From the NCBI GenBank assembly GCA_029259745.1, contig JAJDEO010000002.1, forward strand, positions 53,787 to 117,786: a stretch of DNA of 64,000 nt, in the 5' to 3' direction. This document shows positions 35,559 through 35,705 of this stretch, one piece after another (the stretch's first letter is position 1; every line of letters begins with the position of its first letter). Source of the DNA: Planctomycetota bacterium. GTDB taxonomy: Bacteria; Planctomycetota; B15-G4. Position numbers and translations under genes: made by a program. The notes below the pieces were generated by a model that did no database searches, was not told where the DNA came from, and worked only from the letters and a program-made list of their open reading frames with translations.

Positions 35559-35705
35559 GTTGAAGAACTGCTCCGAGTGTGCCGTGCGTGACCGAGTGTG
35601 TCTGCGCGAGTGTGGGAACGCAGGCGAATCGGTGGATTCGTCGAGGCTCCCGCGCTCGCACAGGCGCGCTCGGGTGCGTGCGGCGCGCCGGATGAGTTTT
35701 TCAAC
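35559..35705. repeat. Composite structured repeat element (locus C of the repeat family)
   Basis: Three modules: gttgaagaactgctccgagtg (35559..35579), hairpin aacgcaggcgaatcGGTGgattcgtcgaggct (35617..35648) and ctcgggtgcgtgcggcgcgccggatgagtttttcaac (35669..35705). Each is shared with locus A and/or B. Confidence 0.75.

What the first reader, a model, noticed from the sequence alone, without database searches (positions are those of the whole stretch)
35559..35705. Composite copy of the repeat family carrying the hairpin module with compensatory loop change (locus C)
Locus C carries all three modules in one 147-bp unit between two minus-strand genes. Its hairpin has gaatc-GGTG-gattc where locus A has gaatc-TTCA-gattc. 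Because it contains every module, it may represent the full-length element from which A and B are derived.
Basis: seen in the sequence. Interest (0 to 1): 0.5.

Follow-up and report, generated by a model that had tools for sequence, protein, structure and literature searches.

The report
Decayed hairpin-shaped miniature transposon (MITE) copy
The 147-bp "composite repeat" is an old, immobile copy of a 159-bp miniature transposon that folds into one long hairpin and landed on a gene's stop codon; this is an ordinary kind of element, though its family keeps an unusually conserved hairpin tip across the phylum Planctomycetota.

Summary
Window 35553-35711 is one 159-bp near-perfect hairpin. It has the features of a MITE:
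- 17-nt terminal inverted repeats, CAGCCTGTTGAAGAACT and the reverse complement of CAGACCGTTGAAAAACT.
- A decayed 4-bp target duplication, CCAG/CTAG.
- Insertion exactly at the TAG stop codon of the upstream helicase gene.
- Absence from the orthologous site of a relative, where helicase and decarboxylase lie 9 bp apart.

The same termini and CTAG flanks bound 1.33-1.53-kb insertion sequences in metagenomes. These encode IS5/IS1182-like DDE transposases and are the likely mobilisers.

Locus A (12390-12548) is an equally full-length, 67%-identical copy with 11 doubly compensated stem pairs. It is not a derivative of C. Locus B (27428-27508) is an internally deleted C-like copy. The GGTG/TTCA difference lies in the unpaired loop and is not compensatory.

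The window comes from a Planctomycetota contig. About 100 related copies in Planctomycetia, Phycisphaerae and Brocadiia share the tip GGCGAATC-N3-6-GATTCGTC. They do so despite different termini and 3- or 4-bp target duplications. Their orientation relative to genes is random. Why the tip is conserved is unexplained. No Rfam family matches.

Verdict: new member of a known kind, of modest interest.

The parts
35553..35711 (+). Element C: full-length 159-bp hairpin MITE. The strand given is the one carrying the tip as GGCGAATC...GATTCGTC.
   Evidence: Folds. Covariance model score 102 bits, E 1e-23. Boundaries from the family alignment and target duplications.
35553..35569 (+). Left terminal inverted repeat, CAGCCTGTTGAAGAACT
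   Evidence: 16 of 17 bases match the left end CAGCCCGTTGAAGAACT of the 1.47-kb insertion sequence in L172.
35695..35711 (+). Right terminal inverted repeat (reverse complement CAGACCGTTGAAAAACT)
   Evidence: Matches the right end CAGCCCGTTGAAAAACA of the L172 insertion sequence. Pairs with the left repeat.
35623..35642 (+). Conserved apical hairpin: stem GGCGAATC/GATTCGTC with one G.T pair, loop GGTG (35631-35634), two GANTC sites
   Evidence: Identical stem in locus A and at the tip of about 100 long hairpins in Planctomycetota genomes.
35549..35552 (.). Left copy of the 4-bp target-site duplication, decayed to CCAG
   Evidence: The family-wide pattern is a 4-bp direct repeat, mostly CTAG.
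35712..35715 (.). Right copy of the target-site duplication, CTAG. Bases 35712-35714 are the TAG stop codon of the minus-strand helicase gene.
   Evidence: Orthologues end ...ctcgggTAG with no element.
35712..37718 (-). Upstream gene: DEAD/DSHCT (Ski2/HelY-like) helicase, whose stop codon abuts the element
   Evidence: Pfam. 87% identical to the L224 orthologue.
33997..35421 (-). Downstream gene: PLP-dependent decarboxylase. The start is ATG at 35421; the longer ORF reaching 35661 is a spurious extension through the element.
   Evidence: Pfam. A 100%-identical 474-aa database protein exists. The N-terminus matches the L224 orthologue.
12390..12548 (+). Element A: second full-length 159-bp copy, 67% identical to C; loop TTCA at 12468-12471; target duplication no longer recognisable (AAAG/CGAC)
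   Evidence: (92.4 bits).
12246..12304 (+). Duplicate of the 5' arm of A only, preceded by an intact CTAG (12242-12245). Part of a 144-bp local duplication that includes A's upstream flank.
   Evidence: (repeat family D2, 91%).
27428..27508 (+). Element B: internally deleted C-like copy (outer arms only, no tip). It exactly fills the gap between two convergent stop codons.
   Evidence: repeat family D8, 89%; 26.7 bits, E 3.8e-5.
61670..61818 (+). Possible related 149-bp hairpin element, flanked by CTAG/CAAG, that begins CAGCCT but has a different core and tip
   Evidence: Weak covariance-model hit (20.8 bits, E 0.001). Fold of -82.5 kcal/mol.

Best explanation
Locus C is a fossil copy of a non-autonomous DNA transposon (MITE) that is shaped as a single long hairpin.

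Shown:
- It has 17-nt terminal inverted repeats and a (now imperfect) 4-bp target-site duplication of a CTAG site.
- It sits exactly on the TAG stop codon of the helicase gene.
- The orthologous junction in a relative lacks it.
- Insertion sequences with the same termini and CTAG flanks exist and encode an IS5/IS1182-like DDE transposase.

Inferred:
- A transposase of that family, supplied in trans, bound the terminal repeats and cut and pasted (or copied) the element into CTAG.
- Because the target contains TAG on both strands and is duplicated, the helicase kept its stop codon. This is why such insertions are tolerated next to gene ends.
- The copy is now immobile. Its duplication has decayed, and no transposase gene lies within the 64-kb window.
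- When the helicase-decarboxylase region is transcribed, the element would place a very stable RNA hairpin (-91 kcal/mol on the mRNA strand) between the two ORFs. It could act as a processing site, stabiliser or attenuator. That effect is untested.

A is a diverged sister copy. B is an internal-deletion derivative.
For: Anatomy:
- The whole unit is one hairpin with inverted termini.

Family:
- A covariance model finds C (102 bits), A (92 bits) and B (E 3.8e-5) in the window.
- It finds about 100 full-length copies in Planctomycetota loci.

Target duplications:
- Most copies are flanked by CTAG...CTAG.
- Non-palindromic direct repeats prove duplication rather than an extended palindrome: TTAG/TTAG three times, CCAA/CCAA, CTTG/CTTG and CTGG/CTGG.
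- Two subfamilies instead show 3-bp TNA duplications (TGA, TAA, TTA, TCA).

Recent mobility elsewhere:
- 16 copies in one metagenome-assembled genome are 99.4% identical and have intact CTAG flanks.

Presence/absence:
- In L224 the helicase (87% amino-acid identity) ends TAG and the decarboxylase starts 9 nt later.
- In L103 the helicase also ends TAG with no element.
- In the window the element starts immediately after that TAG.

Partner:
- A scan with only the terminus CTAGCAGNCCGTTGA found at least 11 complete 1331-1533-bp elements with that terminus at both ends and CTAG or CTAA flanks.
- Each encodes a 447-466-aa protein with DUF772 + DDE_Tnp_1 + DDE_Tnp_1_6 domains.
- The best NCBIfam models are IS1182 and IS5. 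JGI names relatives 'IS5 family transposase'.
- Beyond the scanned 15 nt, their ends (GTTGAAGAACT / GTTGAAAAACA) match the two ends of C.

Insertion preference:
- 52 of 98 copies have an ORF of at least 100 codons whose stop codon lies in the duplication or terminus, against 339 of 1027 unoccupied YTAR sites.

Other:
- Orientation relative to neighbouring genes is random, as expected for a transposon: 44 sense versus 43 antisense at 3' ends.
- No Rfam family matches.
Against: - No transposase homologue lies in the window or in the roughly 750 kb of genome loci held. A partner in the same genome is therefore not shown.
- C's duplication is imperfect (CCAG versus CTAG) and A's is gone.
- The empty-site comparison is not a clean footprint. 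The window has a further 127 nt (35422-35548) between the element and the decarboxylase start that L224 lacks, and L103 has another gene there.
- The insertion sequences do not contain the element's core or tip. None of 25 short elements found by terminus alone carries the tip. The body of the MITE is therefore not a simple deletion derivative of these insertion sequences.
- Plain MITE biology does not predict the near-invariant tip and the conserved internal loops across subfamilies that have different termini.
Confidence: 0.85

Rival explanations
1. It is primarily a structured RNA (a cis-regulatory element or small RNA gene). Its conserved apical stem-loop and internal loops would be recognised by a protein or by another RNA, and the repeat copies would be paralogous RNA genes.
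For: - Strong covariation: 29 of 36 pairs show double changes, and the covariation score is 0.606 against 0.183 in shuffles.
- Asymmetric internal loops are conserved across subfamilies (5' CAAGG against 3' ACG(C), and 5' CGA against 3' GCAG) while the stems vary.
- The tip-bearing strand folds better in 96 of 102 cases.
- C has 13 G.T against 3 A.C mismatches.
- One variant tip replaces the G.U pair with C-G.
Against: - The tip strand is oriented at random relative to flanking genes: 44 versus 43 at 3' ends and 28 versus 29 at 5' ends. Both full-length window copies are antisense to their neighbours.
- There is no promoter-like or terminator-like signal.
- Family-wide, G.T and A.C mismatches are nearly balanced (298 versus 250).
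- The terminal repeats, the target duplications, a 99.4%-identical burst and matching insertion-sequence ends show that the copies arise by transposition.
- No Rfam family matches.
- The conserved internal loops are absent (fully paired) in the window copies.
Confidence: 0.1
2. It is an IS630/Tc1-mariner-type MITE that inserts at TA within CTAG and duplicates only the TA, as proposed for RUP of pneumococcus.
For: Most copies read CTA-G...C-TAG, which also fits a TA duplication in a CTAG target. RUP is linked to IS630-Spn1 by similarity of terminal repeats and TA targets (PMC2229807).
Against: - Non-palindromic 4-bp direct repeats (TTAG/TTAG three times, CCAA, CTTG, CTGG) and 3-bp TGA, TTA and TAA repeats cannot be produced by a 2-bp TA duplication.
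- The insertion sequences carrying the same termini encode DDE_Tnp_1/DUF772 (IS5/IS1182-like) proteins, not IS630-type proteins.
Confidence: 0.03
3. It is a REP/BIME- or REPIN-like palindrome spread by a RAYT (IS200/IS605-type tyrosine transposase) through single-stranded DNA hairpins.
For: It is a hairpin-forming intergenic repeat, its tip contains CGTC, and the family shows strand asymmetry of folding energy. Tagged REPs have been reported in Planctomycetes (PMC3733652).
Against: - REPs are 20-40 bp with a GTAG or CGTC head at one end (PMC3733652). This element is 159 bp.
- It has terminal inverted repeats and 3-4-bp target duplications.
- Its termini match those of DDE-transposase insertion sequences.
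- Orientation shows no clustering along the K. novifilia chromosome (positions).
Confidence: 0.02
4. It is a host-selected transcription terminator or attenuator placed between the helicase and decarboxylase genes, and its repeat nature is incidental.
For: It lies directly after a stop codon, and its minus-strand RNA fold is -91.1 kcal/mol. MITE hairpins are known to affect mRNA stability and termination (PMC10969869; PMC3733652).
Against: - There is no U-tract and no terminator-like hit.
- The orthologous junction works with a 9-nt spacer and no hairpin.
- Copies occur in either orientation and also at 5' ends of genes.
- Any such effect would be a consequence of insertion and does not explain the element's origin.
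Confidence: 0.1

Closest known systems
Bacterial MITEs that fold as one long stem-loop (ERIC/IRU, Correia/NEMIS, RUP, Chunjie, QMITE2)
   Same: - Size of about 100-240 bp with no coding capacity.
- Terminal inverted repeats and target duplications that decay with age.
- Intergenic position, often next to gene ends or inside operons.
- Transcripts predicted to form very stable hairpins.
- Size variants produced by internal deletion.
- Presumed mobilisation in trans by an insertion-sequence transposase with matching ends.

Sources: PMC2229807; PMC10969869.
   Different: - Hosts are Planctomycetota, a phylum the 2024 review of prokaryotic MITEs does not mention (0 occurrences).
- GC-rich, not AT-rich.
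- The target is CTAG/YTAR with a 4-bp duplication, or TNA with a 3-bp duplication.
- The interior tip is conserved across subfamilies whose termini differ. In most MITE families the termini are the conserved part.
IS5 / IS1182-type insertion sequences (DDE_Tnp_1 transposases)
   Same: - The same terminal sequence, CAGNCCGTTGAARAAC, and the same CTAG flanks as element C.
- From my own knowledge of the ISfinder tables: 4-bp YTAR duplications are the hallmark of the IS5 group.
- A 3-nt insertion site is typical of the IS1031 group (PMC2516522).
   Different: - These insertion sequences are 1.33-1.53 kb and encode a transposase. Element C is 159 bp and encodes nothing.
- Beyond about 20 nt the sequences are unrelated, and the insertion sequences lack the tip.
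- The NCBIfam IS1182 and IS5 models score below their curated cut-offs.
CIR (Caulobacter CcrM-associated intergenic repeats) of alpha-proteobacteria
   Same: - Strictly intergenic repeats of about 110 bp.
- Conserved between species.
- They carry phylogenetically conserved GANTC sites at or next to a terminal hairpin loop, and TA at the termini (PMC2229807).
- The tip here holds two GANTC sites (GAATC, GATTC) flanking the loop.
   Different: - CIR RNAs are drawn as two arms joined by a linker, with no clear terminal repeats or target duplication. This element is a single hairpin with both.
- Different phylum.
- The CIR sequence could not be obtained for comparison.
- The window shows no GANTC-specific depletion or enrichment: 177 sites against 191 expected by an order-3 Markov model.

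Membership tests
[quoted passage not shown] | Small size (under about 500 bp) and no coding capacity | tested here: met
   The element is 159 bp. The only ORF crossing it is a spurious upstream extension of the decarboxylase ORF.
[quoted passage not shown] | Terminal inverted repeats | tested here: met
   The ends are CAGCCTGTTGAAGAACT and the reverse complement of CAGACCGTTGAAAAACT.
[quoted passage not shown] | Target-site duplication flanking the element | tested here: met
   At family level, 4-bp direct repeats include non-palindromic ones, and two subfamilies show 3-bp TNA repeats. For C itself the duplication is imperfect (CCAG/CTAG, 3 of 4 bases). For A it is lost.
[quoted passage not shown] | Multiple dispersed copies, including near-identical young ones | tested here: met
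   The window holds 2 full copies, 1 deleted copy and fragments. At least 20 exact-tip copies occur in Kolteria novifilia Pan216. One metagenome-assembled genome has 16 copies at 99.4% identity.
[quoted passage not shown] | Presence/absence polymorphism at orthologous sites | tested here: met
   L224 and L103 have the helicase stop codon without the element. It is not a clean footprint, because the window has 127 further extra nucleotides.
[quoted passage not shown] | An autonomous element with matching termini that can supply transposase | tested here: inconclusive
   Matching 1.33-1.53-kb insertion sequences exist in metagenomes. None was found in the window or in the carrier-genome loci held. 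The whole genome could not be searched.
IS5 / IS1182 superfamily (for the presumed partner) | DDE_Tnp_1-type transposase with the DUF772 N-terminal domain | tested here: met
   Pfam scores: DUF772 63-72 bits (cut-off 23.1), DDE_Tnp_1 39.5-47.3 bits (cut-off 23), DDE_Tnp_1_6 25-30 bits (cut-off 25.1).
IS5 / IS1182 superfamily (for the presumed partner) | Score above the curated NCBIfam family cut-off | tested here: not met
   IS1182 scores 189-201 bits against a cut-off of 270. IS5_4 scores 89-112 bits against 140. The partner is therefore IS5/IS1182-like, not an assigned member.
REP / REPIN (RAYT-mobilised palindromes) | A 20-40-bp stem-loop with a GTAG or CGTC head, no terminal repeats or target duplication, and an associated RAYT gene | tested here: not met
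   The element is 159 bp with terminal repeats and a target duplication. RAYT association was not testable.
Any Rfam RNA family | A score at or above a family's gathering threshold | tested here: not met
   The only hit in the window is a tRNA elsewhere. For the element the best hit is a plant microRNA precursor model at 41 bits against a threshold of 124. No hit falls on elements in 18 Planctomycetota loci.
CIR (CcrM-associated intergenic repeat) | Conserved GANTC at a hairpin loop; two-arm structure; alpha-proteobacterial host with CcrM | tested here: inconclusive
   GANTC next to the loop is met. The two-arm structure is not met, because this is a single hairpin. Sequence similarity and GANTC methylation are not testable with these tools.

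The most novel reading that the evidence does not exclude
The roughly 30-nt apical module, (CGAAG/NCG)CAGGCGAATC-N3-6-GATTCGTCGA(TGCAG/G), may be a functional passenger. In most subfamilies it is accompanied by conserved asymmetric internal loops. It could be a protein-binding DNA or RNA hairpin, for example a methylation, nucleoid-protein or RNase target. Selection would have kept it across three classes of Planctomycetota while the surrounding arms covaried freely. Meanwhile the termini were repeatedly re-fitted to different IS5-type transposases, giving 4-bp CTAG versus 3-bp TNA duplications. On this reading the family is a mobile carrier of a conserved structured motif, analogous to the GANTC motif of CIR or the IHF site of Correia elements but on a phylum-wide scale.
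Probability: 0.2. Interest if true: 0.6.

Novelty: new member of a known kind. Interest (0 to 1): 0.3.

Why it matters
For the window itself the result is mainly an annotation correction.
- The "three modules" at loci A, B and C are one MITE family, not a regulatory RNA.
- The long ORF that runs through the element is spurious.
- The insertion turned a 9-nt helicase-decarboxylase junction into a 290-nt spacer holding a very stable hairpin, which may have uncoupled the two genes.

More broadly, MITEs of Planctomycetota appear to be undescribed. This family gives a clear set of terminal-repeat and target-duplication signatures (CTAG or TNA). It also points to a candidate transposase family and shows insertion at stop codons that regenerates the stop. 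The phylum-wide conserved hairpin tip is a concrete, testable oddity.

Tried and rejected
- **Actinobacterial origin.** I first assumed this from the HelY-like helicase, LexA and DinB/MST domains. I rejected it because the SecDF and decarboxylase relatives that carry names are from Planctomycetota, and the window encodes RND/HlyD efflux systems.
- **IS630-type TA duplication.** Rejected on the non-palindromic 4-bp and 3-bp direct repeats.
- **Strand-specific RNA function.**
  - The folding-energy asymmetry is not matched by an orientation bias relative to genes.
  - Family-wide there is no clear excess of G.T over A.C mismatches.
- **Known RNA family.** Three Rfam searches found nothing.
- **Phage or plasmid origin.** There are no exact tip matches in viral contigs. 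The plasmid collection gave only weak chance hits.
- **Autonomous copy near the MITEs.**
  - The held genome loci contain no paired termini at insertion-sequence spacing.
  - tblastn found no transposase hit in the window or in those loci.
- **GANTC avoidance.** The apparent 2.2-fold deficit against dinucleotide shuffles disappears with an order-3 Markov expectation (177 versus 191).
- **A short ORF started from the tip.** An SD-like loop plus ATG occurs in one tip class. It is absent from the window's class and shows no coding-type conservation.
- **Search-design error.** The genome-collection scan used the tip alone.
- **CIR comparison.** The CIR paper (PMC166474) is not held.

Full report
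**Observation**

The window is GC-rich, 64-72%. The reported unit lies between a minus-strand DEAD/DSHCT helicase gene (35712-37718) and a minus-strand PLP-dependent decarboxylase gene (33997-35421).

The central module AACGCAGGCGAATC-NNNN-GATTCGTCGAGGC occurs exactly twice in the window. One copy is at 35617-35647 with loop GGTG, the other at 12454-12484 with loop TTCA. None is expected by chance.

Repeat finding links three places:
- 35551-35712 aligns to 12388-12549 over 162 nt at 71% identity without gaps.
- 35660-35705 matches 27457-27502 at 89%.
- A 5'-arm fragment lies at 12231-12304.

**What the unit is structurally**

The three "modules" are the 5' arm, the tip and the 3' arm of one continuous hairpin.
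- As RNA, the plus strand of 35545-35720 folds at -125.8 kcal/mol, against -76.9 +/- 4.2 for shuffles (z -11.8).
- The minus strand folds at -91.1 kcal/mol (z -6.6).
- The outer ends are inverted repeats.

Locus A has the same length and folds at -125.3 kcal/mol. It is only 67% identical to C over 176 nt. Of C's pairs, A keeps 47 unchanged, 6 through a one-sided change and 11 through changes on both sides; 8 are broken.

The GGTG versus TTCA difference lies in the unpaired apical loop, so it is not compensatory. The compensation is in the arms.

Locus B (27428-27508) keeps about 27 nt of the 5' end and about 50 nt of the 3' end of a C-like copy and lacks the centre.

**Relatives**

No Rfam family matches. 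The best hit on the element is a plant microRNA precursor model at 41 bits against a threshold of 124, which is a generic response to a long hairpin.

Nearly all were from Planctomycetota:
- Planctomycetia: Kolteria novifilia Pan216 with at least 20 sites, plus Pirellulales and Planctomycetales.
- Phycisphaerae.
- A Candidatus Kuenenia genome (Brocadiia).
- Three loci came from a metagenome-assembled genome labelled Bacteroidetes.

In all but about six chance hits, the match is the tip of a hairpin of about 165 nt. No Rfam family covers these either.

The window itself is planctomycetal, not actinobacterial as I first assumed. Its SecDF and decarboxylase have their best named relatives in Planctomycetota. 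It also encodes RND/HlyD efflux systems.

**Covariation**

I aligned 50 copies that are less than 85% identical to one another. This gave 36 consensus pairs, of which 29 show changes on both sides.
- 90.8% of cells pair, against 67.3% in column shuffles and 32-42% when partners are slid.
- The covariation score is 0.606 against 0.183, with 0 of 500 shuffles reaching it.
- The 7 tip pairs never vary in this set. That is partly by construction, because the set was collected using the tip.

A covariance model built from this alignment scored the window as follows:

| Locus | Score |
|---|---|
| C | 102 bits |
| A | 92.4 bits |
| B | 26.7 bits, E 3.8e-5 |
| 61662-61826 | E 0.001 (weak) |
| 12042-12198 | E 0.005 (weak) |

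In the loci the model also found copies that the exact pattern had missed. Their tips differ by only 1-2 bases. One variant, GCCGAATC...GATTCGGC, replaces the G.U pair with C-G.

**Evidence that it is a transposable element**

Aligned termini and flanks show target-site duplications.
- Subfamilies starting CAG..., AGCG..., GCTTCG..., GTTCTG..., TGGTG... and GAGGC... are flanked by 4-bp direct repeats, mostly CTAG.
- The non-palindromic cases TTAG/TTAG (three times), CCAA/CCAA, CTTG/CTTG and CTGG/CTGG exclude an extended palindrome and also exclude a 2-bp TA duplication.
- Subfamilies starting GAGCC... and GAACG... have 3-bp TNA duplications (TGA, TAA, TTA, TCA).

For C the element is 35553-35711, flanked by CCAG and CTAG. 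A's flanks no longer match.

One metagenome-assembled genome holds 16 copies that are 99.4% identical with intact CTAG flanks, which indicates a recent burst.

**Empty sites**

- In relative L224, the helicase (87% identical) ends ...ctcgggTAG and the decarboxylase (70% identical) starts 9 nt later.
- In relative L103, the helicase also ends TAG with no element, and a beta-lactamase-family gene follows.
- In the window, the element begins immediately after the same TAG, which lies inside the CTAG duplication.

The window has a further 127 unexplained nucleotides (35422-35548) before the decarboxylase start. The comparison therefore shows presence versus absence, not a clean footprint.

**Candidate mobiliser**

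I scanned metagenomes with the terminus alone, CTAGCAGNCCGTTGA.
- At least 11 hold complete 1331-1533-bp elements with this terminus inverted at both ends and CTAG or CTAA flanks.
- Each encodes a 447-466-aa protein with DUF772, DDE_Tnp_1 and DDE_Tnp_1_6 domains.
- The best NCBIfam models are IS1182 (189-201 bits, cut-off 270) and IS5 (89-112 bits, cut-off 140), so the protein is IS5/IS1182-like but not assigned.
- The protein family is very large. JGI names some members "IS5 family transposase".

Beyond the scanned bases, the insertion-sequence ends match C's two ends:

| End | L172 insertion sequence | Element C |
|---|---|---|
| Left | CAGCCCGTTGAAGAACT | CAGCCTGTTGAAGAACT |
| Right | CAGCCCGTTGAAAAACA | CAGACCGTTGAAAAACT |

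A 4-bp YTAR duplication is, from my own knowledge of ISfinder, the IS5-group signature. A 3-nt target is typical of the IS1031 group (PMC2516522).

Limits of this evidence:
- The insertion sequences lack the tip, and similarity stops after about 20 nt.
- None of 25 short elements found by terminus alone has the tip, although many are also full-length hairpins.
- No transposase homologue lies in the window or in the held carrier loci.

**RNA or DNA?**

Points that favour a single-stranded function:
- The tip-bearing strand folds better in 96 of 102 cases, with means of -102.3 and -88.4 kcal/mol.
- C itself has 13 G.T against 3 A.C mismatches.
- Most subfamilies keep asymmetric internal loops while the stems vary.

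Points against a strand-specific RNA role:
- G.T and A.C mismatches are nearly balanced over all 87 copies analysed, 298 against 250.
- With crude ORF-based gene calls, orientation is random. At 3' ends of genes there are 44 sense and 43 antisense copies; at 5' ends there are 28 and 29.
- Both full-length window copies are antisense to their neighbours.
- The conserved internal loops are fully paired away in the window copies.
- No promoter-like or terminator-like signal is present.

I therefore read the hairpin as a property of the transposon family. Any RNA effect would be a by-product.

**Insertion preference**

- 91 of 101 copies are intergenic, and they lie more often at 3' ends of genes than at 5' ends.
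- In 52 of 98 copies, an ORF of at least 100 codons ends with a stop codon inside the duplication or terminus. The figure for unoccupied YTAR sites in the same loci is 339 of 1027.
- CTAG contains TAG on both strands and is duplicated, so an insertion at a stop codon restores it. C shows this for the helicase.

**The unexplained part**

The tip GGCGAATC-N3-6-GATTCGTC and its immediate flanks are shared by subfamilies that differ in termini, in duplication length and in almost every arm position. These subfamilies span three classes of the phylum. One K. novifilia copy is a chimera of two subfamilies joined at the tip.

The tip holds two GANTC sites. This recalls the CIR repeats of alpha-proteobacteria, which carry conserved GANTC at a hairpin loop (PMC2229807). 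However, the window shows no GANTC-specific bias: 177 sites against 191 expected by an order-3 Markov model. I could not obtain the CIR sequence.

Part of the tip's apparent invariance reflects how the copies were collected.

**Comparison with known elements and verdict**

The element meets the defining features of a MITE: small size, no ORF, terminal inverted repeats, target duplication, many copies, and presence/absence polymorphism. A partner in the same genome is not shown.

It resembles ERIC, Correia, RUP, Chunjie and QMITE2 in architecture and in its likely consequences (PMC2229807; PMC10969869). A 2024 review of prokaryotic MITEs does not mention Planctomycetes.

It is a new member of a known kind. 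Interest is modest for the locus itself and somewhat higher for the family's conserved tip.

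Noticed in passing
window 11990-12723: The DinB-LexA intergenic region is a pile-up of hairpin repeats. It holds a 157-nt hairpin at 12042-12198 (-81.8 kcal/mol, weak covariance-model hit). It holds a duplicate of element A's 5' arm, together with A's upstream flank, at 12231-12304 (91%, 144-bp spacing). A fragment resembling an insertion-sequence end, GTTGAAGAACTCG, starts at 12305. Element A itself is also there.
   Followed up: partly
window 12558-12594 (- strand): A terminator-like hairpin followed by TTTT lies just downstream of lexA, immediately before element A. A is therefore probably outside the lexA transcript.
   Followed up: yes
window 61670-61818: A 149-bp hairpin (-82.5 kcal/mol) is flanked by CTAG/CAAG and starts CAGCCT like element C, but it has a different core and tip. 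It is probably another MITE using a related terminus. A second weak hit lies at 61853-61969.
   Followed up: partly
window 27425-27511: Element B exactly fills the 81-bp gap between the stop codons of two convergent genes, an LMW phosphatase (TGA at 27425-27427) and an EamA transporter (stop at 27509-27511).
   Followed up: partly
window 35422-35548: 127 nt between element C and the decarboxylase start have no counterpart in the L224 orthologue, which has a 9-nt spacer. Their origin is unknown.
   Followed up: no
L027:2079-2253 (Kolteria novifilia Pan216): A chimeric element has the 5' arm of the GCTTCGTCTC subfamily joined at the conserved tip to the 3' arm of the CAG...GTTGA subfamily. This suggests recombination between subfamilies at the tip.
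   Followed up: no
L092:297-476: A diverged hairpin next to a standard copy carries the tip GCCGAATC-GGTG-GATTCGGC. The usual G.U pair is replaced by C-G, the only covariation event seen within the tip.
   Followed up: no
L015, L021, L031, L036, L037, L039, L053, L059, L061, L062, L068, L078, L090, L095, L100 (assembly CAZDNN01): 16 copies are 99.4% identical with intact CTAG flanks. This is a recent transposition burst, and this metagenome-assembled genome is the best place to look for the active transposase.
   Followed up: partly
window 32560-33915 (- strand): A 451-aa ORF matches the Pfam delta-endotoxin N-terminal domain (Endotoxin_N, E 4.8e-17), which is unusual for a planctomycete.
   Followed up: no
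L103:4136-5914: In a relative, a beta-lactamase-family gene sits between the helicase and the decarboxylase, where the window has the MITE. The junction appears to be a hotspot for insertions.
   Followed up: no
L111, L115, L117, L144, L158, L174, L222 (metagenome loci): Other short elements with the same CAGNCCGTTGA termini and CTAG flanks are also full-length hairpins, but their cores are unrelated. A hairpin body seems general for MITEs of this insertion-sequence group.
   Followed up: partly
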